Virus record (IMG/VR): IMGVR_UViG_3300035698_020047
Coordinates: 18,081-82,080 of that record
DNA from: a virus
DNA: 64,000 nt
Reading direction: 5' to 3' (one strand)
A model generated the notes under the pieces. It had not been told where the DNA came from. It saw only the letters and a list, made by a program, of their open reading frames with translations, and searched no databases. Each line of letters opens with the position of its first letter. Positions within the stretch are counted from its first letter, which is position 1. Of the stretch, positions 1 to 51,266 are shown in pieces. Position numbers and translations under genes: made by a program.

Positions 1-2444
1 CCGACCCGATTGTGATACATGACGCAGGAATCGTAGGTGCCGCCGCCGGTGTGCTGACGGGCGCTTATACCGATGCGGAAGTGACTGATGAATCAGCGGG
101 TGCTGTCACCGCTACTGTCACATTTAGTAGCGAAGCTTACACCGGATGCTTGGACGAAGTGTTCACGCTTCTAATTACTGGTGATCCTGATCTTACTGGG
201 CCGATAGATGGCGCAACCTATACCATCGCCAATAGCGGTGGCGACATAATCACGACTGGCACTCTTGGGGACGGTGGCACAGGCCTTGATAATGAATCTG
301 GTGACATCACTCTGACTGGGCTTGGAATTACATTCTCGTTCACGGTTAGTGGTGAAGTTGGCGTAGGCGATACGATCATTTTCAACGCTGAACCCGACAA
401 TACGGTAATGACTGTTATTGTTGAGAATGGTGCTGCTGAAACGGTCACCATCGCTCAGGCCACTTACACCAGTGTGGCAGCATTCATTGCGGCTGTAAAT
501 CTTGGAGCTCCAACAGATTTTACTGCTGTTTCGTCGACTGACGCCAATGCGAATACTGTTCCCGCGATTCAGACTAATACTGCCGGTGAATGGATTCAGC
601 TTATTGGTACATGTGCGTGCACCGCTGAACTTGGAGTGTCGCAGTATATCTATGACATACCGCGAAGTTATCTGATCGGTACCGATGCCGGGCCATACAA
701 CTTCAGCACTGCAAACAACCGAGTGGTACTTGATGTCATCGCATCTGATGAGACGGTACAGTTCGATTTCGACATACCTGGGATAACTGGTACGACTGCT
801 GCTGCGGTGGCGGCATCTATCGACGCCAATGCGTTGTATCAAGGTACTACTTACTTCGATTCATTTGCACTCACGATTCCTGGTGGGACTGAGCATGTTG
901 TGATTATAACATCACAAGCACGGCAGTTCGATCAGCTCAAAATGCAGGCCACATTCACTTATCTGGCCTGCTTGCGACTTGCCGAAGAGCTTGGGATAGC
1001 ATTCCCTTACACTCTGGCTTACAGGTCGTTCACAGACTCACGCACCGCATTGCCGGACGCCAGCACTGTGAATTCTGGTTTCCCAGCAAGCTGCGACGGT
1101 GGGGCTAGCACCCAATGCACCGCCGACACTGACTACTACGCAGCTATTGTCGGTTTCTTTGTTGCAAAATATTCCGGTACGTGGATCGAAGATTACTCAC
1201 TCAGCCTTGAGATATACACTGAAGGTGTTGGTGATGTTGCAGGGCGTTGGAAGATCACAATCAACGATGCCAATGGCATTACCCACGATCTCGTACAAGA
1301 TATAAGCTTTGACCCGGACGATGACCGATACGTCGGCAGTGTCTTGAATCCAGGAACAACCATTGGCGGCGTCAATGGTAATGACTTCATCAATTGGGAA
1401 GACAGACCAGCCTGGCTTCGTCCCGATGACACCACTGAGCCTAGCCCAATCCTTAGTAGTGGGTGGGGCGAGGACGGTCCTCAGAATGGCATCCCAGCAG
1501 ACGCTGAAGATAGCTCTGCGTTGGACAATGAAGTCATTGGCAACCCGTCATTGTCGACTGGAATCTACGCATTCCAGAACCCCGAGACATTCGACTTCAA
1601 CCTGTTGTTGACTCCGGGATTCGCGAGCGGTCCAGTTATCGCGCAAGCCATCCAGTTCTGCGAGAACCGTGGCGATGTGCTTTACCTAGTTGACCCGCCT
1701 TATGGCCTTAGACCTCAGCAGGTCATTGACTGGCATAATGGTATGCTGACAAGTGACTTGGCATCTGCGCTTAACACTAGCTACGGTGCGTTGTACTGGA
1801 GCTGGTTGAAGATTAATGACCTATTTAATGGCGGGACGATTTGGATTCCGCCGTCTGGCTCTGTTGCGGCAGTTTTTGCTCGCACTGAGCGTGTTACAGA
1901 ACAGTGGTTTGCGCCTGCAGGCCTCAATCGAGGCCGTCTGCTTACCGCTATCGACATTGAGTACAATCCGACGCAGGGTGAACGTGATGCTTTGTATGGT
2001 AGCGGCAACGCTGTTAATGCTATCGTAGACTTCACTCAGCAGGGAATTACGGTTTGGGGTCAGAGGACGTTACAGCGTTCCTCGACAGCTCTGGACCGCG
2101 TGAATGTCCGAATGTTGATGATATTCTTGAAAAAGAATCTGACGCGGACACTTCGTTCGTTCGTTTTTGAGCAGAATGATGCGGTTACGAGAGCACAAGT
2201 CACCAGCACAATCCGCCCATTCCTGGGTGATATTGCGGCTAGACGTGGCTTAGAAGCTTACAATGTCGTTTGCGATGACACTAACAATACGCCAGAGCGT
2301 ATTGATCGCAATGAATTGTGGGTGAGTGTGTTCTTGAAGCCCACTAGAGTCGCCGAGTTTATCGTGCTGAATCTGGTAGTTCTGCGTACTGGCGCTAATT
2401 TCGGTGCACAAGAAGTACTAGCCGCTGGCGGTGTAGTAGTTTAA
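1..2444 (+). CDS. Contractile tail sheath protein (T4 gp18-like), 5'-truncated by window
   Basis: C-terminal sheath motifs WFAPAGLNRG, WGQRTLQ, DRVNVR, FVFEQND, VVCDDTNNTP, LKPTRVAEFI; frame is open upstream of the first start codon. Confidence 0.95.
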   Translation, partial: DPIVIHDAGIVGAAAGVLTGAYTDAEVTDESAGAVTATVTFSSEAYTGCLDEVFTLLITGDPDLTGPIDGATYTIANSGGDIITTGTLGDGGTGLDNESGDITLTGLGITFSFTVSGEVGVGDTIIFNAEPDNTVMTVIVENGAAETVTIAQATYTSVAAFIAAVNLGAPTDFTAVSSTDANANTVPAIQTNTAGEWIQLIGTCACTAELGVSQYIYDIPRSYLIGTDAGPYNFSTANNRVVLDVIASDETVQFDFDIPGITGTTAAAVAASIDANALYQGTTYFDSFALTIPGGTEHVVIITSQARQFDQLKMQATFTYLACLRLAEELGIAFPYTLAYRSFTDSRTALPDASTVNSGFPASCDGGASTQCTADTDYYAAIVGFFVAKYSGTWIEDYSLSLEIYTEGVGDVAGRWKITINDANGITHDLVQDISFDPDDDRYVGSVLNPGTTIGGVNGNDFINWEDRPAWLRPDDTTEPSPILSSGWGEDGPQNGIPADAEDSSALDNEVIGNPSLSTGIYAFQNPETFDFNLLLTPGFASGPVIAQAIQFCENRGDVLYLVDPPYGLRPQQVIDWHNGMLTSDLASALNTSYGALYWSWLKINDLFNGGTIWIPPSGSVAAVFARTERVTEQWFAPAGLNRGRLLTAIDIEYNPTQGERDALYGSGNAVNAIVDFTQQGITVWGQRTLQRSSTALDRVNVRMLMIFLKKNLTRTLRSFVFEQNDAVTRAQVTSTIRPFLGDIAARRGLEAYNVVCDDTNNTPERIDRNELWVSVFLKPTRVAEFIVLNLVVLRTGANFGAQEVLAAGGVVV

Positions 2445-2461
2445 ATAACAAGGAGCCATCC

Positions 2462-2998
2462 ATGCCAGGTTTTATGATTAATGGTGATCAAGGCGGTCAA
2501 CCTAATTCGGTTGCTGAAGTTAGACGTACACATAGGTGGGTTTTTAGAGCCATTGGTACGCTTCAAGGCCGAGAAGTATTTCTAGTACTTAAGTCGGCAT
2601 CCAGGCCTTCGATAACTTTCGAAGAGCCGCCAATGCACCACAACCAAGAGCAGGTTTACTTCGCCGGCAAACACACGTTTGAGCCTCTTGCTCTCGCTTG
2701 GTATGACGTCGAGCAGGAGCCGGATGTTTCGAAGGCTATGTGGGACTGGATGGAAGTTTGCATGCCGCTATCTAATGGCGAAGCAGCCAATGTGAATACT
2801 CCGAGAGCTTACAAAAGTGCCGAGGCCAACCTAGACATGATCGATGGTGTTGGCACTGCTACTGAGTCTTGGGGAATATATAATGGCTGGCCGCAGGCAA
2901 TTAACTGGAATGCATTAGACTATAGTGCCAGTGACTTGCAGCTCATCGAAGTAAAATATCGATATGACCGAGCTGTTAGGATAGATGTGGGTAGTTAG
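2462..2998 (+). CDS. Tail tube protein (T4 gp19-like)
   Basis: Follows sheath, SD AGGAG; YFAGK..F..L, WP..I....LDY..SD, YDRA pattern of tube proteins. Confidence 0.85.
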   Translation: MPGFMINGDQGGQPNSVAEVRRTHRWVFRAIGTLQGREVFLVLKSASRPSITFEEPPMHHNQEQVYFAGKHTFEPLALAWYDVEQEPDVSKAMWDWMEVCMPLSNGEAANVNTPRAYKSAEANLDMIDGVGTATESWGIYNGWPQAINWNALDYSASDLQLIEVKYRYDRAVRIDVGS

Positions 2999-3004
2999 GA
3001 TGAT

Positions 3005-3544
3005 ATGCCTGGTTTCAGCATTAATGGCAGCAGAGGCCCAGATCCCCATGTAGAGCCATACCGGGCTCATAGGTGGCATTTCTATTTTGCGAGCATACTC
3101 GACCTCACCGACGTCGAGTTGTACGCGATGACGTGTCAACGCCCTACTGTTGATTTCGATACGATAACAATTCACAATCAGCAGACTCGTATCAATATGC
3201 CCGGCAAGCACAAGTGGGCCCCCATAAGTGTGAAATTTTACGAAACGCAGCAGGGCGAGTATTCGTCTGCGCGTTCGATATTTGATTATTGGGCTGGCGG
3301 CAGCAATTCGGTGCTTAATTTTGAAACCAATACGCTAACCAGAGATTTTAGAACGGTTGTGAAGATAGCCCTCGAATCTGGTGCTGGAGTTGGTACGCAT
3401 GCATATGAATTATTTAACACGTGGCCATCTAAGGTAGCACCGTCAGAGCTAAGTTACTCCAGCAGCGATTTAACGACAGTGCAGGTGACACTAACATACG
3501 ATTCTGCTCGAGAAGATGTTGACTTGGCAGGTTTAGTGTCGTGA
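3005..3544 (+). CDS. Tail tube-like protein, paralog 2
   Basis: Starts MPGF like the preceding gene; RP, PGK..W, WPS...ELSY.SSD, LTYD. Confidence 0.75.
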   Translation: MPGFSINGSRGPDPHVEPYRAHRWHFYFASILDLTDVELYAMTCQRPTVDFDTITIHNQQTRINMPGKHKWAPISVKFYETQQGEYSSARSIFDYWAGGSNSVLNFETNTLTRDFRTVVKIALESGAGVGTHAYELFNTWPSKVAPSELSYSSSDLTTVQVTLTYDSAREDVDLAGLVS

Positions 3545-3551
3545 GGTAATT

Positions 3552-4058
3552 ATGCCTGGGTTTAAGATAGCAGAAAAACAGGCTGGTCAAAAGCAGTTGC
3601 CCAAGAATGTTGTGTATACTTATACATGGCATATGCCACAATTCGTGGGGATGGGTGTCGATGATTTGAATGTCCATCTTAAAGAAACAAGTCTGCCGAG
3701 TTATTCGTTTGACACTGAATCAATTAAAACTGGCCATACGACATATCAATTCGCAAAAGGCATCAAGTGGTCTGATGTAAAGTTATCATTTTATGATACT
3801 GATGATGTTGGGCAATTATTGAAGCTTAATGCGGGTGAAGTTTGGACTCCACAAACAGGGTTGAAGGTGGCTAGTGAGTATATGGCCGAAAGTAAGATTC
3901 AAGTTCAATACTCTGATGGTCAATTGGCATATACTTGGACTCTCGTAAATAGTTGGATCAAATCAGTTTCATTCTCGAAACTTACATATGAGTCGAGTGG
4001 GGTCAATAACGCCAACGTCACGTTGGCGTATTCTTGGGCTACTTTTGAAGCTGCCTAA
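3552..4058 (+). CDS. Tail tube-like protein, paralog 3 (tube initiator/terminator-like)
   Basis: MPGF start; LPSY.F, W..V.L.FYD, W.KSV.FS.L.Y, V.L.Y tube-fold pattern. Confidence 0.65.
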   Translation: MPGFKIAEKQAGQKQLPKNVVYTYTWHMPQFVGMGVDDLNVHLKETSLPSYSFDTESIKTGHTTYQFAKGIKWSDVKLSFYDTDDVGQLLKLNAGEVWTPQTGLKVASEYMAESKIQVQYSDGQLAYTWTLVNSWIKSVSFSKLTYESSGVNNANVTLAYSWATFEAA

Positions 4059-4111
4059 TATTCTACTTGGCGCATCAAAGAGTAAATAAAGCACGAACTT
4101 GGAGATATACT

Positions 4112-7002: not shown

Positions 7003-7841
7003 TGATCAGTGGGCTGACATTATCACGCGTCCCACCTGGTAACATAAATGAGGGCAGTAATTGCGCTCTTACTGTTGCGTGGTCTAATGGTGCAATCACC
7101 GGACATATTGTGGTTGTAGACTGGGGCGATGGCACGGTTGATGGTTTCGACGTTTCGTCTTCGCCGCCGAGCTACAACGAGGTATACAACCACACATATG
7201 CCACTTGGGGTCAGTTTGATATTTTGGTTGATGTGAGTGCTGGTACTGATGTGGCTTTAGAGGGGATACCAGTAACAGTTGTAGCCGTGACGCCCGTGAT
7301 AACAGTTGCCACAGGTGCCTGCGATAACGATTCTGGGGCTACTGATATTAACTTTACCTTCGTAGATCCAGGCTTGGGTGGCTTCGATATTGTGGTGGAT
7401 TGGGGTGATGGATTATCAGACTTATGGTTCGTATCGGATGCGGGTTCGTATTCTCGCAGTCATACTTACGCATCGTTTCCATCGGGCTCATTGTCGCATA
7501 GGCGCCTCATTCAGTTGTTTGTGGCCGATCGCGACACTAATACTGGGGCGGCGGCGTTTTATCCAGCTATGACGTTTATTGATGAAGTCGATGACATTGG
7601 TATCGGTATTGTCGACGGCTATAGTATTATTGAGTATCACGATACAGTAGACAAAAGTGGCTTTGGTAATACATTTTTTAATGGCATTCCGTTTTATTCG
7701 TTCGATGCTGACGGAACAGGATCGGCTGCTGCGAGTGTGTCTTCTGTTTTAGATCACGTCTCAGTGTTGATCATAACAGATGTGGTAGAGTGTTCTCAAG
7801 TTGGCAATATACCCTTTGAGCAATTGGTTCCTCCAGAATGA
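7002..7841 (+). CDS. PKD/Ig-like domain virion protein
   Basis: Two VDWGDG...HTYA PKD signatures. Confidence 0.7.
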   Translation: MISGLTLSRVPPGNINEGSNCALTVAWSNGAITGHIVVVDWGDGTVDGFDVSSSPPSYNEVYNHTYATWGQFDILVDVSAGTDVALEGIPVTVVAVTPVITVATGACDNDSGATDINFTFVDPGLGGFDIVVDWGDGLSDLWFVSDAGSYSRSHTYASFPSGSLSHRRLIQLFVADRDTNTGAAAFYPAMTFIDEVDDIGIGIVDGYSIIEYHDTVDKSGFGNTFFNGIPFYSFDADGTGSAAASVSSVLDHVSVLIITDVVECSQVGNIPFEQLVPPE

Positions 7842-8833
7842 CTACAGTAGCACAAAATAGATGGATTGAATTGATTACGATCGAGCAGGGAGTCGAAATT
7901 GTTGGCTCCGATGTGGAGACCGTAGGTGGATGGAGATACTGTAGGGGCGACAGTTGCGTCACCGATGCGGACGGCGGGGCTTTAGTGCAGACATCAAGCG
8001 ATTATGCTTCCTCCATATATGGTTCTGCCAGCATCGAAAGGCCATCATTGCCAATAGGCTCACTTATCGGTATGTGGATTGGATCTGCACCGGATTTGTT
8101 TACATTGCAACTAGATGAGTTTTTTGAACTCGGTTTAGCGGAAGTATTTAACCTATCACTGCTCGATTCTGCTGGGGTTTTTGGTAGCACACCGTTTTTA
8201 ATTGGATCGTCGTACGCTGGATTGGTGCCAGTTAGTGCCTCTAGCCTTGTGTTGGCGTTTCATGATCAGCATCAATGGAACAATAACTACGGCAGCCAAA
8301 ATGTTGAAGTCGTCTTTGATGGCCTTGGCCCATCAAATCATGTTGTACATGCCACTCAATGTTTATACTTCAGATTCGCGGGTGAGGACCTACTAGGCCC
8401 AGAGCCATATTATGAGAATATCGGTCGCGACAATACACAAAACATATATCGCCCCTTAGAGGTTGATTCACCACATAATGCAGCTATTGTTAGCATAACA
8501 GCATCGAGCGATGTTGCACAAGTAGAAGTCGACAATACTTATTCATATCTAAAATTACAACGATACCTATTTGACCCAGTCGAATATGCTGGCTTGACGC
8601 CGCGTCAAATGTTATGGAAACGTGGGTATCAGGCTCAAGAATATAACTCCTTCTTATTGGAGGATGACACACTAAATAGCGTGTCACCAACCTACGATTG
8701 TATTGCGTGCGGCATTTTGGGAACTTCGTTTTGTTCTACTATCGTTTCGATCAAGACAGATGTAAGAGCTCCAATGACGCGAATTATGCAGCGCATCAAT
8801 AAGACGCAGATACTTCCGCAGCGTGTGTGTTGA
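7838..8833 (+). CDS. Hypothetical protein
   Basis: 331-aa ORF coupled to the upstream gene by ATGA overlap. Confidence 0.55.
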   Translation: MTTVAQNRWIELITIEQGVEIVGSDVETVGGWRYCRGDSCVTDADGGALVQTSSDYASSIYGSASIERPSLPIGSLIGMWIGSAPDLFTLQLDEFFELGLAEVFNLSLLDSAGVFGSTPFLIGSSYAGLVPVSASSLVLAFHDQHQWNNNYGSQNVEVVFDGLGPSNHVVHATQCLYFRFAGEDLLGPEPYYENIGRDNTQNIYRPLEVDSPHNAAIVSITASSDVAQVEVDNTYSYLKLQRYLFDPVEYAGLTPRQMLWKRGYQAQEYNSFLLEDDTLNSVSPTYDCIACGILGTSFCSTIVSIKTDVRAPMTRIMQRINKTQILPQRVC

Positions 8834-48757: not shown

Positions 48758-49308
48758 GCGATCGAGGCGTTAAGGATAACCTGCTGGAGGGCGGCTTCAA
48801 TCGCAGCTTCCCATTCGTCTCCTGACGTCCATGCGTTGTCCACGAAGAACTGGTTGGTTGCTTCGTCTACGTGGCTTGCTCCGGCACCCGGTTGGGCCAT
48901 GTGTGTCCATGTGCCGGAAACCGGGAAGTGATCGCCGTCGTTGAAGGAAACGATGCCGCGTACGTGAAGGGCATAATCAACAATGGTTTTTAATGGGCTG
49001 GGCGCTGCTGGGTCCACAGCAGGATTCCTTACCAGAGTCGCGGTCGGGCCTGTTGCGGTTCCCAAAGCAGTTATGAAGAACCACTGCAATTCTTGGAACC
49101 AAGAAGCCGCAGCAGTAGTAACCCCAGAATCTGAGGGCGTGCCAGCTGAATTCTGTATTTGGGCGTCGGTGTTCAGGCCTTCGGCACCGTCTACAGTATA
49201 AGCACCAGCGTTGCTATCGTAGTAGCATTCTATAGTAGAGGTGCTGCCATCAGAATACGCAACATTGCCAGAAAACGCGAATACTAAATCATTAACAGTG
49301 TCGGCCAT
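48754..49308 (-). CDS. Hypothetical (possibly virion) protein
   Basis: SD GGAG; CAAAAATA-like motif upstream. Confidence 0.6.
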   Translation of the reverse strand: MADTVNDLVFAFSGNVAYSDGSTSTIECYYDSNAGAYTVDGAEGLNTDAQIQNSAGTPSDSGVTTAAASWFQELQWFFITALGTATGPTATLVRNPAVDPAAPSPLKTIVDYALHVRGIVSFNDGDHFPVSGTWTHMAQPGAGASHVDEATNQFFVDNAWTSGDEWEAAIEAALQQVILNASIA

Positions 49309-49497
49309 GATAAATCTCCATAGTGTTATTATATTTTTGCCCACATATTACTGGCCGCAACGTATTACTAATATCTCGTGCTGCGTCGTATTTCAAGAGA
49401 TCTGCGATGGGCATTTTCCCACGCCGAAACAGCGCTGGACAAACGGCGTAGCAAAGTCAGCAAAAACCTTAGCAGCATAACGAAAAAGGAGCAGCAA

Positions 49498-50235
49498 ATG
49501 TCAGCGAAACTTTGTCAAATAATCGCCGTTGTGAACGGCCAGAAATCTCGGACTACAGCCGAGGTCACCAAGTGGCACAAGATGACTCAGAAGCCGGAGC
49601 TGTTGAAAGGTATCTCCAGGGTCTACACCCCCAAGGACGACGATGGCGACGCATACCCGCCTGAATCACAGAAGGTTCAGCTTACGGCGGAGACGGCCAT
49701 TGAGAAGGCCTCCAAGTCCTTCATCAAGCTGTTTGATGTTGTGGCTACCCAAGACGCAGCTAACTGCGAAGCCAAGGCGGACGTCAAGGTCGGAGATACG
49801 GTTGTCCTCCAGCAAGTCCCCGTAACCACATTGTTGTTCCTGGAGAAGCAGCTCCACGATATTCACAAATTCGTGGACATAATTCCGGAGCTGCCTTCGT
49901 CAGTGGACTGGAAGTATGATGTGAACAAGGGCTTCCACCAGACTGACGCGATTGTGGCCAATAAGACCAAGAAGATCCAGAAGCCGGTCGTACTGGCCCC
50001 TGCTACCAAGGAACACCCCGCACAGGTTCAGCTTGTCGGCGAAGATATTATAGTCGGGACTTGGGCCACAACCCACTTCTCTGGCGCTCTTCCTGCTGAC
50101 GAGAAGCGAGCAATGCTGAAACGCATTGTCGAATTGCAGGACGGTGTAAAATTCGCTCGCGAAGAGGCGAACGGACGCGAAGTCGTGGATGTTGAACTCG
50201 GGCAGAAGCTGTTCGATTACATCACCACTAAGTAA
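49498..50235 (+). CDS. Uncharacterised 245-aa helical/coiled-coil protein linked to the downstream ncRNA
   Basis: SD AAGGAG; C-ending codon bias like the MCP; L.QIIAV, G.SR.Y.P.DD.G...PPE, VP.T.LLFLEKQL, AT..HPAQV, FSGA, VK.ARE.AN. Confidence 0.85.
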   Translation: MSAKLCQIIAVVNGQKSRTTAEVTKWHKMTQKPELLKGISRVYTPKDDDGDAYPPESQKVQLTAETAIEKASKSFIKLFDVVATQDAANCEAKADVKVGDTVVLQQVPVTTLLFLEKQLHDIHKFVDIIPELPSSVDWKYDVNKGFHQTDAIVANKTKKIQKPVVLAPATKEHPAQVQLVGEDIIVGTWATTHFSGALPADEKRAMLKRIVELQDGVKFAREEANGREVVDVELGQKLFDYITTK

Positions 50236-50330
50236 CAACTGAATATTGATCTTATCGTGGTCGGCACCAAAGCGTGAACCGGCTACGATTAAGTAGCGCA
50301 AGTTTAGTCTTAGATTTAGATTGAACAAAG

Positions 50331-50414
50331 CACTCGTGCAGGTTCGAGTCCTGCCTCCCGCATTCTTTGTTGAACCTACTCGCGGGAGTGGCGGAATTGG
50401 CAGACGCGCAGGTG
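50331..50414 (+). ncRNA. Permuted tRNA-like domain 1 (Leu-like)
   Basis: T-arm GCAGG-TTCGAGT-CCTGC 50338-54; CTCCCGC 50355-61 pairs GCGGGAG 50382-88; TG; D-arm GCG-GAATTGGCAGA-CGC 50391-407. Confidence 0.85.
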
Positions 50415-50512
50415 GCCTAAGTTACCATCTGTGAGTAGCTGAATGAGATTGAAACTATCGCTACAGTTTCAGCAGCGATGCTGGCTGCTAAATCGAGGTC
50501 CAGGTTCCCCTA

Positions 50513-50609
50513 ACCGCTGTCAATGCCGGTTCAAATCCGGCCCCCTTCTTTCTTTAGACGTAGAATGACGAACCCCCGAAGGGGTAGCTCAACGGCAGAG
50601 CAGGGCGGT
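50513..50609 (+). ncRNA. Permuted tRNA-like domain 2
   Basis: T-arm GCCGG-TTCAAAT-CCGGC 50525-41; CCCCTTC 50542-48 pairs GAAGGGG 50578-84; TA; D-arm GCTC-AACGGCA-GAGC 50587-601; ACCGCT/GGCGGT closing stem. Confidence 0.85.
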
Positions 50610-50712
50610 CTTAAATTAAACACCTGGATTAAACGGATAAAGTTAGCAGTTCGAGACAGGCGTCGGTTAAATAACTCTTATTGAAAAATAACTAGTGAAA
50701 TAACCAACTATT

Positions 50713-50752
50713 GGCCCCGGCGGCACAGGACAGGTCTCCGGGGCTCTTTTTT
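50713..50752 (+). terminator. Intrinsic terminator
   Basis: GGCCCCGG...CCGGGGCT followed by a T-run. Confidence 0.75.
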
Positions 50753-50804
50753 ATATATTCAGAGAGGGAAACAATATTGAGGCGTCTCGTTGTATATGAC
50801 TGTT

Positions 50805-51266
50805 ATGGAAAATGATAGTCAAAAACGATGGGATGAGTACTTTCTTAAGATGACAGCACTTGTCGCAACTAAGAGCAAGGACCCTAGTACCCAAAGCGGA
50901 TGCGTGATTGTGGGACCCGACCATGAAGTCAGAAGTACTGGCTACAATGGTCTGCCACGGAATTGCACGGATGGCGTTGCTGAGCGGGATGTACGTCCAA
51001 TCAAGTATTTGTGGTACGAGCACGCCGAGCGGAATGCTGTATATAATGCTGCCAGGCACGGTGTTGCACTTGCCGGTTGTACTGCTTATATAAATTGGCA
51101 TCCTTGTGCCGACTGCGCTCGAGGTCTCATACAAGCAGGGATTGTTAGAATTGTGACATTTGAGACGCCGGAAGAGCTAAAAGAGCGTTGGGGAGATCAT
51201 ATAGTTGTCAGCAGCGAGATGCTGAGCGAGTCTGGGGTAGTCTACGTTGAATACCCTAGTTTCTGA
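50805..51266 (+). CDS. dCMP deaminase family protein
   Basis: WD.YF, SKDPST, GYNG.P, HAE.NA, PC..CA. Confidence 0.92.
   Translation: MENDSQKRWDEYFLKMTALVATKSKDPSTQSGCVIVGPDHEVRSTGYNGLPRNCTDGVAERDVRPIKYLWYEHAERNAVYNAARHGVALAGCTAYINWHPCADCARGLIQAGIVRIVTFETPEELKERWGDHIVVSSEMLSESGVVYVEYPSF

What the first reader, a model, noticed from the sequence alone, without database searches (positions are those of the whole stretch)
49361..50752. Candidate new RNP system: uncharacterised helical protein plus a ~500-nt RNA with two circularly permuted tRNA mimics
Seen: right after the 245-aa gene (49498-50235) is a non-coding stretch with a hairpin (50254-50289), two long arms and a terminator (50713-50752). 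Arm 1 pairs GTAGCG 50293/CGCTAC 50459 and AGTTTAGTCTTA 50301/TGAGATTGAAACT 50444. It is tipped by a T-arm (50338-54), a perfect 7-bp acceptor stem CTCCCGC/GCGGGAG closed by a 20-nt loop, and a Leu-type D-arm. Arm 2 pairs CGATGCT 50476/GGCGTCG 50659, CTGCTAA 50485/TTAGCAG 50643, TCCAGGT 50499/ACCTGGA 50622 and ACCGCT/GGCGGT. It is tipped by a second, sequence-different T-arm (50525-41), acceptor CCCCTTC/GAAGGGG with a 29-nt loop, and a D-arm. Both keep U8, the D-loop GG and TTCRA but have no anticodon loop or CCA. Established: this T-acceptor-D order occurs in bacterial YrlA Y RNAs, which partner Ro60/Rsr. No Ro60/TROVE gene is in this window and the adjacent protein does not resemble one. Inference: a co-transcribed protein-RNA pair displaying two tRNA elbows, e.g. 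as a decoy for tRNA-targeting defences, a ribosome/RNase P ligand, or an RNA antitoxin/scaffold.
Basis: partly seen in the sequence, partly recalled or inferred. Interest (0 to 1): 0.92.

Follow-up and report, generated by a model that had tools for sequence, protein, structure and literature searches.

The report
Double tRNA-mimic RNA beside DUF7873
A jumbo-phage gene of unknown function (DUF7873) is followed by a folded RNA of about 470 bases that carries two back-to-front tRNA look-alikes; the same gene-plus-RNA pair recurs in many phages and bacteria, so it is probably an undescribed RNA-protein unit related in design to bacterial Y RNAs.

Summary
Against the nearest relative, 84 proposed pairs are 95.8% paired with 21 compensatory changes, and slid controls give 0-3.

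The 245-aa protein is Pfam DUF7873. It has no structural relative that I could find.

A permuted T-arm / 7-bp acceptor / D-arm module lies within 1 kb downstream of the gene in 32 of 34 non-duplicate loci. Elsewhere there are 3 hits in 590 kb.

The RNA resembles YrlA Y RNAs but fails the family tests. It scores 26 bits against a cut-off of 69, has no GNCGAA Ro-binding motif, and has no adjacent Ro60 gene.

"No Ro60" cannot be claimed for this phage. The record is about 22% complete, and its closest complete relative encodes Ro60 with its own Y-like RNAs 60 kb away. Ro60 is still dispensable for the pair in general. Eight of 10 phage records carrying the pair lack it, as do 38 of 96 DUF7873-bearing species in one bacterial family.

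Function is inferred, not shown. This scan has reported the same system before on other DNA.

The parts
49361..49497 (+). Upstream untranslated region. It holds a GTATT motif at 49362-49366 and a GGAG ribosome-binding site just before ATG 49498. Promoter status is unverified.
   Evidence: Sequence read. The consensus scan places promoter-like sites only further upstream, at 49265-49335, and finds no more than in shuffles. An earlier unchecked note on this genome (e1-6121364) proposes GTATT as a phage promoter motif.
49498..50235 (+). DUF7873 protein gene (245 aa)
   Evidence: Pfam PF25283, E 8.9e-94, 314 bits against a cut-off of 27. The motif TKEHPAQVQ is invariant in 26 aligned homologues. 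The AlphaFold2 model has mean pLDDT 89.9.
50254..50289 (+). Hairpin between the stop codon and the RNA body
   Evidence: -17.6 kcal/mol, z -3.83. Its sequence is not conserved in L002.
50293..50464 (+). Arm 1 with module 1. Basal stems: 50293-98/50459-64 and 50301-05/50452-56. Closing stem: 50329-35/50433-40. T-arm: 50338-54. Acceptor: 50355-61/50382-88, with loop 50362-81. U8 G9: 50389-90. Leu-type D-arm: 50391-50407. Anticodon-arm-like hairpin: 50408-32.
   Evidence: My covariance model R1 scores 32.5 bits at 50325-50418. The D-arm is the same as that of relative G001's own tRNA-Leu genes.
50465..50475 (+). Linker between the two arms. It is part of a junction sequence (…UAUCGCUaCAG…) that is conserved in the two-module subfamily.
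   Evidence: Alignment; listing across loci.
50476..50665 (+). Arm 2 with module 2. Stems: 50476-82/50659-65, 50485-91/50643-49 and 50499-505/50622-28. Internal loop: AUCGAGG (50492-98) opposite UUAAACGGAUAAAG (50629-42). Closing stem: 50513-18/50604-09. T-arm: 50525-41. Acceptor: 50542-48/50578-84, with loop 50549-77. U8 A9: 50585-86. D-arm: 50587-50601.
   Evidence: YrlA model, full length, 26.2 bits at 50499-50631. R1 scores 60.5 bits at 50511-50610. ATCGA lies upstream and TTAAAYG downstream of module 2 in 11 of 38 loci, all from the two-module subfamily.
50713..50752 (+). Intrinsic-terminator-like hairpin with a U-run
   Evidence: -20.3 kcal/mol, z -3.02. A GC-rich hairpin sits at the same place in L002. 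The consensus scan did not list it because its loop exceeds 8 nt.

Best explanation
The locus encodes a two-component unit: the DUF7873 protein and, on the same strand just after it, a structured non-coding RNA of about 470 nt.

The RNA presents two circularly permuted tRNA-like heads at the tips of two long arms. Each head has a T-arm, a 7-bp acceptor stem capped by a loop, and a D-arm.

I read it as a ribonucleoprotein of the Y-RNA design with a different protein. DUF7873 would hold the conserved non-tRNA parts, namely the arm junction and the AUCGA / UUAAACG internal loop of arm 2. The two tRNA-like heads would be recognised by enzymes that handle tRNA: RNase P at 50381/50382 and 50577/50578, 3' trimming enzymes, CCA-adding enzyme and tRNA-modifying enzymes. 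Recognition would either process the RNA into base-paired pieces with tRNA-like ends or tether those enzymes. The role would be general RNA or tRNA upkeep, which large phages copy alongside tRNAs, tmRNA and Ro60.

Shown: the structure, its covariation, the gene-RNA linkage, and the wide distribution.

Inferred: that protein and RNA bind, that the RNA is made and cut, and what the unit does.
For: Linkage:
- 32 of 34 non-duplicate loci have a module within 1 kb downstream on the same strand, against 3 hits in 590,352 nt elsewhere.
- My covariance model adds one of the two misses (L012) and finds the other (L015) upstream of the gene.
- Cultured phages Racecar, GodonK and KpLz-2_45 show the gene followed by an unannotated gap of 400-700 nt that holds the modules.
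- Seven of 7 chromosomal actinobacterial loci have the modules. DUF7873 is the only reading frame shared by all seven, apart from an opposite-strand frame that overlaps the DUF7873 gene itself.

Structure: 21 compensatory pairs against L002, and 19 of 21 pairs covary across 18 sequences.

Likeness to tRNA ends:
- All 44 modules have 7-bp acceptor stems (required by the scanner).
- 25 of 44 carry NCCA right after the stem. Chance is about 1 in 64 per module.
- Only 13 of 71 neighbouring tRNA genes encode CCA.
- M. smegmatis YrlA, which has a 7-bp stem, is cut by RNase P and receives CCA in vivo (PMC4201824, passages read).

Breadth:
- 1845 protein clusters at E <= 1e-5.
- 96 of 151 species sampled in one bacterial family carry one highly conserved copy, next to CoaE, S4-domain and ABC genes.

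Independence from Ro60:
- No TROVE match in 8 of 10 phage records, or 5 of 7 counting only complete or >=90% complete ones.
- 38 of 96 DUF7873-bearing species lack a TROVE match.
- In G001 and G007 the Ro60 gene has its own adjacent Y-like RNA, separate from the DUF7873 RNA.
Against: - There is no transcript, binding or processing datum.
- DUF7873 is not a typical basic RNA binder. Its pI is 6.6 here and 5.2-9.4 in 18 homologues.
- The window's own modules lack CCA. Five of 7 chromosomal actinobacterial module-2 loops are a fixed GCTCGA without CCA, so opening of the acceptor may not be general.
- My model R1 scores the Ro60-adjacent RNAs of G001 and G007 at 40-50 bits. The tRNA-like core therefore does not separate the two classes.
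- Ro60 may still matter. It is present in the closest relative and lies 4.5 kb from the pair in G007. It is enriched among DUF7873 carriers in a phylum sample, 6 of 8 against 7 of 393 (one of the 13 TROVE genomes, G059, is unpublished). It is weakly enriched within the family (odds ratio 2.1, p 0.04, not corrected for relatedness).
Confidence: 0.45

Rival explanations
1. It is a true Y RNA. The RNA serves a Ro60 protein, encoded by the phage outside this fragment or by the host, and DUF7873 is an accessory or unrelated neighbour.
For: - Full-length YrlA match, E 0.0022.
- The closest complete relative G001 encodes TROVE.
- In G007 the TROVE gene lies 4.5 kb from the pair.
- 58 of 96 DUF7873 species in one family also have a TROVE match.
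- Six of 8 carriers against 7 of 393 non-carriers have TROVE in the phylum sample.
Against: - 26.2 bits is far under the cut-off of 69, and the same model also rings at E <= 0.001 in 6 of 14 control genomes.
- The GNCGAAN0-1G Ro-binding motif is absent from the stems.
- Ro60 genes in G001 and G007 have their own adjacent Y-like RNAs.
- TROVE was not found in 8 of 10 phage records or in 38 of 96 species.
- The TROVE matches in that family cover only model positions 277-357 or so and may not be Ro60 orthologues.
Confidence: 0.2
2. It is a phage decoy. The anticodon-less tRNA mimics soak up or inhibit host tRNA-targeting defence enzymes, and DUF7873 stabilises them.
For: - The pair sits inside phage tRNA clusters.
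- tRNA-like ends with NCCA occur in 25 of 44 modules.
- That phage tRNAs can counter tRNA-cleaving defences is recalled knowledge, not from a call.
Against: - The same pair is a conserved single-copy chromosomal gene in 96 of 151 species of one bacterial family, among housekeeping genes. That argues for a cellular function.
- This window holds no tRNA gene.
Confidence: 0.12
3. It is a cis-acting 3' element of the DUF7873 mRNA, serving stability, processing or termination, with no function of its own in trans.
For: - The RNA is on the same strand downstream in 33 of 34 loci.
- No promoter-like site lies between the gene and the RNA.
Against: - A 470-nt structure with covariation in 13 helices and conserved loops is far more than an mRNA end needs.
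- In L015 the module lies upstream of the gene.
Confidence: 0.08
4. The modules are permuted or split tRNA precursors that are cut and rejoined into working tRNAs.
For: - Module 1 has the D-arm of the relative's tRNA-Leu genes and a hairpin in the anticodon-arm position.
- NCCA is frequent.
- In the single-module subfamily the closing stem is followed by a U33-like anticodon half-loop in 17 of 19 modules, by my reading.
Against: - No anticodon is conserved. The hairpin loop differs between the window and L002, and the helix is not kept in register.
- ARAGORN finds no tRNA here, and the tRNA model gives 15 bits against a cut-off of 29.
- No RtcB ligase was found in the record.
- Bacteria that presumably have full tRNA sets (not checked here) keep the pair.
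Confidence: 0.05

Closest known systems
YrlA / YrlB bacterial and phage Y RNAs with Ro60 (Rsr); Rfam RF02553; Chen et al. 2014, PMC4201824
   Same: - Same order of T-arm, loop-capped acceptor stem and D-arm, with the anticodon arm replaced by a long stem formed by the RNA's two ends.
- Often two such RNAs in tandem.
- The M. smegmatis form has a 7-bp acceptor stem, is cut by RNase P and gains CCA (passages read).
- My model built on the DUF7873 RNAs also scores the Ro60-adjacent RNAs of G001 and G007.
   Different: - Both heads lie in one transcript-sized unit of about 470 nt rather than in separate RNAs of about 110 nt.
- There is no GNCGAAN0-1G motif.
- The YrlA score is 26 bits against a cut-off of 69.
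- The constant neighbour is DUF7873, not Ro60.
- NCCA is encoded in most relatives. The Ro60-adjacent modules in G001 and G007 have 4-5-nt caps without CCA.
Permuted (two-piece) tmRNA genes with SmpB
   Same: - The gene order is circularly permuted. The transcript is cut by tRNA-processing enzymes into pieces held together by pairing (PMC11915505, introduction passage read).
- A tRNA-like domain without an anticodon works with a dedicated small protein.
- smpB-ssrA adjacency in some bacteria is recalled, not from a call.
   Different: - No Rfam family reaches gathering score, the tmRNA families included, and ARAGORN calls no tmRNA.
- There is no G3:U70 pair. The third pairs are G-C and A-U.
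- No tag reading frame was identified, and there are two heads.
- DUF7873 has no detectable likeness to any solved structure.
Class II tRNA-Leu
   Same: - The module 1 D-arm (UGGCGGAAUUGGCAGACGC) matches the D-arm of relative G001's tRNA-Leu genes.
- The base after acceptor 1 is A.
- The long arm leaves at the variable-arm position.
   Different: - It is permuted and capped at the acceptor.
- The anticodon arm is degenerate, with a 9-nt loop that is not conserved.
- tRNA finders do not recognise it.

Membership tests
YrlA (Rfam RF02553) | Reaches the family's gathering score (69 bits) | tested here: not met
   No hit at gathering score. 26.2 bits at 50499-50631.
YrlA (Rfam RF02553) | tRNA-like domain in the order T-arm, capped acceptor stem, D-arm | tested here: met
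   Both modules have it, with covariation.
YrlA (Rfam RF02553) | Ro60-binding stem with the GNCGAAN0-1G motif (Chen et al. 2014) | tested here: not met
   The pattern is absent. The only GNCGAA, at 50567, lies in acceptor loop 2 and is not followed by G.
YrlA (Rfam RF02553) | Encoded next to a Ro60/rsr gene | tested here: not met
   No TROVE match in the 82-kb record, which is about 22% complete. In G001 the Ro60 gene is 60 kb away and has its own Y-like RNAs.
YrlA (Rfam RF02553) | Bound by Ro60 in cells | not testable with these tools
   Needs immunoprecipitation.
tRNA (RF00005) | Contiguous cloverleaf with an anticodon loop, recognised by tRNA finders | tested here: not met
   ARAGORN finds 0 genes in the window. 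The tRNA model gives 15 bits against a cut-off of 29.
Permuted tmRNA | Match to a tmRNA model, a tag reading frame, and a G3:U70 pair | tested here: not met
   No Rfam match at gathering score. ARAGORN finds no tmRNA. The third acceptor pairs are G-C and A-U.
DUF7873 (Pfam PF25283) | Score over the curated cut-off along the full length | tested here: met
   314.2 bits against 27, residues 3-243 on profile positions 2-242 of 244.
Ro60 / TROVE (for the protein) | TROVE domain or HEAT-ring fold | tested here: not met
   DUF7873 is the only Pfam match. There is no fold match at E <= 0.001 in PDB or BFVD.

The most novel reading that the evidence does not exclude
DUF7873 and its double-headed RNA form a third widespread tRNA-mimic ribonucleoprotein of bacteria and phages, alongside tmRNA-SmpB and Ro60-Y RNA. 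A protein of new fold grips a scaffold whose two heads are opened by RNase P and end in CCA. The heads then act as real tRNA-like ends: the Leu-type head might even be charged. The unit would work in translation or RNA quality control without Ro60.
Probability: 0.22. Interest if true: 0.9.

Novelty: new variant of a known kind. Interest (0 to 1): 0.78.

Why it matters
Bacteria have two well-studied tRNA-mimic RNPs, tmRNA-SmpB and Ro60-Y RNA. A further pair would be a sizeable gap in the map of RNA metabolism if it holds up. It would be a conserved protein with no known fold and a two-headed tRNA-like RNA. It is present as a single conserved copy in about two thirds of sampled species of one large-genome actinobacterial family, and it has been copied into many large phages.

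It is directly testable. The pair occurs in cultured phages of Arthrobacter, Gordonia and Klebsiella and in culturable bacteria.

For this window, the finding adds a member in a salt-lake jumbo phage (the six largest run shares, 0.40-0.76, are all labelled salt lake metagenome). Its module 1 keeps an anticodon-arm remnant, which points to an origin from a tRNA-Leu gene.

Tried and rejected
Structure of the protein. The AlphaFold2 model is good (pLDDT 89.9). Foldseek found nothing at E <= 0.001 in PDB (best TM 0.23) or BFVD. A profile search of PDB sequences gave only E 0.37. The protein atlas gave DUF7873 clusters and weak TM 0.45 rows. The libraries pdb_via_wide and pdb_via were not on the machine.

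Protein-protein test. Complex prediction for a DUF7873 dimer was not available.

Expression. No RNA holder was listed for this stretch. I did not lay reads.

Fused forms. A search among longer proteins found none, which is weak evidence.

Bacterial context. I used the genome search and the fetch from genomes instead.

Literature.
- 'DUF7873' gives 0 papers.
- 'YrlA' + 'phage' gives 6 papers, none on this pair by title and abstract start.
- 'permuted' + 'tRNA-like' + 'bacteriophage' + 'acceptor stem' gives 4 papers, none relevant.
- Streptomyces / tRNA-like / Y RNA / small RNA found nothing relevant among the 10 of 94 papers listed.
I could not check them.
- Supplements were closed. Those of Chen et al. 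2014 list the >250 Y RNA loci and might include DUF7873-linked RNAs.

Ideas dropped.
- A tmRNA-like tag. An 11-codon frame at about 50479-50511 keeps its length in L002 by my reading, but the peptide is not conserved.
- ARAGORN's tRNA-Leu and tRNA-Phe calls over the start of the RNA in two bacterial loci have weak arms and look spurious.
- The phylum-level link of DUF7873 with TROVE mostly reflects one family that has both. Within that family it is weak.
Full report
**Where the window lies**

The window is bases 18081-82080 of an 82-kb IMG/VR virus record. CheckV rates the record 22% complete, so it is a fragment of a large phage.

Its nearest complete relative in the collections is G001, a 341-kb contig with terminal repeats. 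Around the finding the two are syntenic. Two upstream reading frames, the DUF7873 gene (60% identity) and the downstream dCMP deaminase (63.5%) keep their order.

**The observation**

All 16 occur once, at the stated positions, and are complementary as claimed.

- The hairpin 50254-50289 and the terminator hairpin 50713-50752 fold well against shuffles (z -3.8 and -3.0).
- The whole 525-nt stretch folds better than all 100 shuffles (z -3.65).
- ARAGORN finds no tRNA or tmRNA in the window.
- No Rfam family reaches its gathering score.

With permissive thresholds the YrlA model matches over its full length at 50499-50631, but at only 26.2 bits against a cut-off of 69. The same model also rings at E <= 0.001 in 6 of 14 control genomes. 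That score alone therefore proves little.

**Is the structure real?**

The relative L002 (from G001) keeps the whole RNA. I then counted them on that alignment.

- 95.8% of cells pair.
- 21 pairs have changed on both sides.
- Partners slid by 1-3 columns give 0-3 such pairs.
- Both acceptor stems, T-arm 2 and all three outer stems of arm 2 show compensatory changes.

One helix fails. The hairpin 50408-50432 is not kept in register in L002 (68.8% paired).

Across 18 diverse module-2-type sequences, 19 of 21 pairs covary. My scanner had demanded pairing in the T, acceptor and D stems, so those counts are partly circular. It did not demand the closing stem, which is 74% paired with all 5 pairs covarying.

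**Anatomy**

Arm 1 (50293-50464) ends in module 1:
- T-arm 50338-54
- acceptor 50355-61/50382-88 with a 20-nt cap
- U8 G9
- a 3-bp D-stem with an 11-nt loop

That D-arm is the one found in G001's own tRNA-Leu genes.

After the D-arm comes an 8-bp hairpin with a 9-nt loop, and only then the 3' strand of the closing stem. Read around the junction, the hairpin sits where an anticodon arm would be. The long arm leaves where the variable arm of a class II tRNA would be. Module 1 therefore looks like a permuted tRNA-Leu with a decayed anticodon arm.

Arm 2 (50476-50665) ends in module 2:
- T-arm 50525-41
- acceptor 50542-48/50578-84 with a 29-nt cap
- U8 A9
- a 4-bp D-stem with a 7-nt loop

Its anticodon-stem equivalent (50513-18/50604-09) runs on into the long arm, as in YrlA.

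**The protein**

The 245-aa product is Pfam DUF7873 (314 bits) and matches no PHROG family. In 26 aligned homologues the stretch TKEHPAQVQ is invariant.

The AlphaFold2 model is confident (mean pLDDT 89.9). It shows four long helices and a 16+16-residue beta-hairpin whose tip carries that motif.

No solved or predicted viral structure matches at E <= 0.001, and a PDB profile search found nothing. The protein is near neutral: pI is 6.6 here and 5.2-9.4 in relatives. That is not what one expects of a classic RNA binder, and I count it against my reading.

**Linkage of gene and RNA**

A simple scanner looked for three things in order:
- a 5-bp T-stem with a T-loop-like 7-mer
- a 7-bp acceptor stem closed by 3-119 nt
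- a D-arm two bases later

It found such a module within 1 kb downstream, on the same strand, in 32 of 34 non-duplicate loci with at least 200 nt of downstream DNA. I left out six exact duplicates, and L010, which has no downstream DNA. Everywhere else in those loci, on both strands, it hit 3 times in 590,352 nt.

A covariance model built from 18 modules recovered one of the two misses, L012 (47.7 bits). It placed the other, L015, upstream of the gene (53.1 bits). It found second modules in L013 and L016. In the window it found only the two known modules.

That model also gives weak hits at junctions of tandem tRNA genes. It scores Ro60-adjacent RNAs at 40-50 bits, so it does not tell the two RNA classes apart.

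In cultured phages Racecar, GodonK and KpLz-2_45 the gene sits in or near tRNA clusters. It is followed by an unannotated gap that holds the modules.

**CCA**

In 25 of 44 modules the acceptor 3' strand is followed at once by N-CCA inside the cap. Neighbouring phage tRNA genes encode CCA in only 13 of 71 cases by a lenient count. Racecar has 0 of 8 and GodonK 3 of 20, yet their modules have ACCA or TCCA.

The CCA is therefore a feature of the RNA itself, not the local style of tRNA genes. It fits processing into tRNA-like ends, as shown for M. smegmatis YrlA (PMC4201824, passages read) and for permuted tmRNA genes (PMC11915505, passage read).

It is not universal. The window, L002, L008 and L013 lack it. 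Five of 7 chromosomal actinobacterial module-2 caps are a fixed GCTCGA. Earlier notes of this scan had already seen CCA-bearing modules.

**Ro60**

The record has no TROVE, RtcB or CCA-adding enzyme match, but it is a fragment.

G001 has a TROVE reading frame 60 kb from its DUF7873 locus. Directly after that frame lie three YrlA-like RNAs scoring 42.9, 33.1 and 31.6 bits. Their caps are short and lack CCA.

G007 has Ro60 with its own upstream module, and 4.5 kb further on the DUF7873 pair.

The other eight phage records have no TROVE match. Among records that are complete or at least 90% complete, 2 of 7 have it.

In a sample of 401 genomes from the phylum of a Mycobacterium MAG, DUF7873 is in 8 and TROVE in 13, with 6 shared. 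One TROVE genome, G059, is unpublished. This looked like strong linkage, but it mostly reflects one family.

Among 151 sampled species of that family:

| | TROVE match | No TROVE match |
|---|---|---|
| DUF7873 present | 58 | 38 |
| DUF7873 absent | 23 | 32 |

The odds ratio is 2.1 with p 0.04, uncorrected for relatedness. The TROVE matches there cover only about 75 profile positions.

Two conclusions follow. Ro60 is not needed for the pair to persist, but a functional tie cannot be excluded. For this phage the Ro60 question is open.

**Cellular setting**

In seven chromosomal loci of that family the modules follow the gene in all seven. No other protein gene is shared by all. The neighbours I scanned are housekeeping types: dephospho-CoA kinase, an S4-domain protein, ABC ATPases and a methyltransferase.

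The family holds 1845 clusters at 90% identity with E <= 1e-5. I found no longer fused forms.

**Conserved non-tRNA parts**

The two-module subfamily, to which the window belongs, shares three elements:
- a 5' segment (…AGCGCAAG…)
- a junction (…AUCGCUcCAG…)
- an internal loop in arm 2, with AUCGA on the 5' side and UUAAAYG on the 3' side

The internal-loop pair is present in 11 of 38 loci, all of this subfamily. These are my candidates for the protein's binding site. That is inference.

**Verdict**

- The RNA works like, and probably descends from the same stock as, YrlA-type tRNA mimics.
- It fails three of the four family tests I could run.
- It has a different constant partner.

I file it as a new variant of a known kind, with a function still to be shown. 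I found no description in print in the searches. Two papers that might bear on it were not held. This scan has reported the same system on many other genomes.

Noticed in passing
L056 (G001:309500-317500), Ro60 frame at 1693-3000, RNAs at about 3516-4060: The closest complete relative encodes a Ro60 (TROVE) protein followed by three tandem YrlA-like RNAs with short CCA-less acceptor caps. They lie inside a cluster of 15 tRNA genes, 60 kb from its DUF7873 locus.
   Followed up: partly
L055 (G007:203500-213500): A Ro60 frame (1996-3645) has its own upstream Y-like module at 1097, with the acceptor capped by GCAA. It lies only 4.5 kb before a DUF7873 gene (7431-8036) and its CCCA-bearing module (8193).
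   Followed up: partly
Single-module loci L017-L034, L046-L048, L051 (listing): After the 5-bp closing stem, the 3' side reads like half an anticodon loop, with U at the position-33 equivalent in 17 of 19 modules by my reading. The next triplet is a leucine anticodon (UAG, AAG, CAG or UAA) in 10 of 19. The window's subfamily does not show this cleanly.
   Followed up: partly
window 50374-50381 versus 50437-50442: The 3' end of acceptor cap 1 (AACCUACU) is conserved between the window and L002 although the stem beside it has changed. It is complementary to GAGUAG, which also pairs with the closing stem. This suggests a possible alternative pairing.
   Followed up: no
L006:4153-4221, L007:3295-3363, L016:5273-5348, L011:3962-4036: ARAGORN calls tRNAs with a CUA anticodon (labelled Pyl) or an odd anticodon shortly after the DUF7873 RNA in several phage contigs. 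They could be amber suppressors or mis-read parts of the RNA.
   Followed up: no
L020/L021:2161-2528: A phage-encoded tmRNA (tag DKSYALAA) lies just upstream of the DUF7873 gene in two related contigs.
   Followed up: no
window 50790-51266: A dCMP deaminase gene (Pfam dCMP_cyt_deam_1, PHROG 174) follows directly after the terminator. It is syntenic with G001.
   Followed up: yes
window 49362-49366: A GTATT motif lies 11 nt before GTG 49378 and about 130 nt before the likely start, ATG 49498. Another first-stage note on this genome proposes GTATT as a promoter motif.
   Followed up: no
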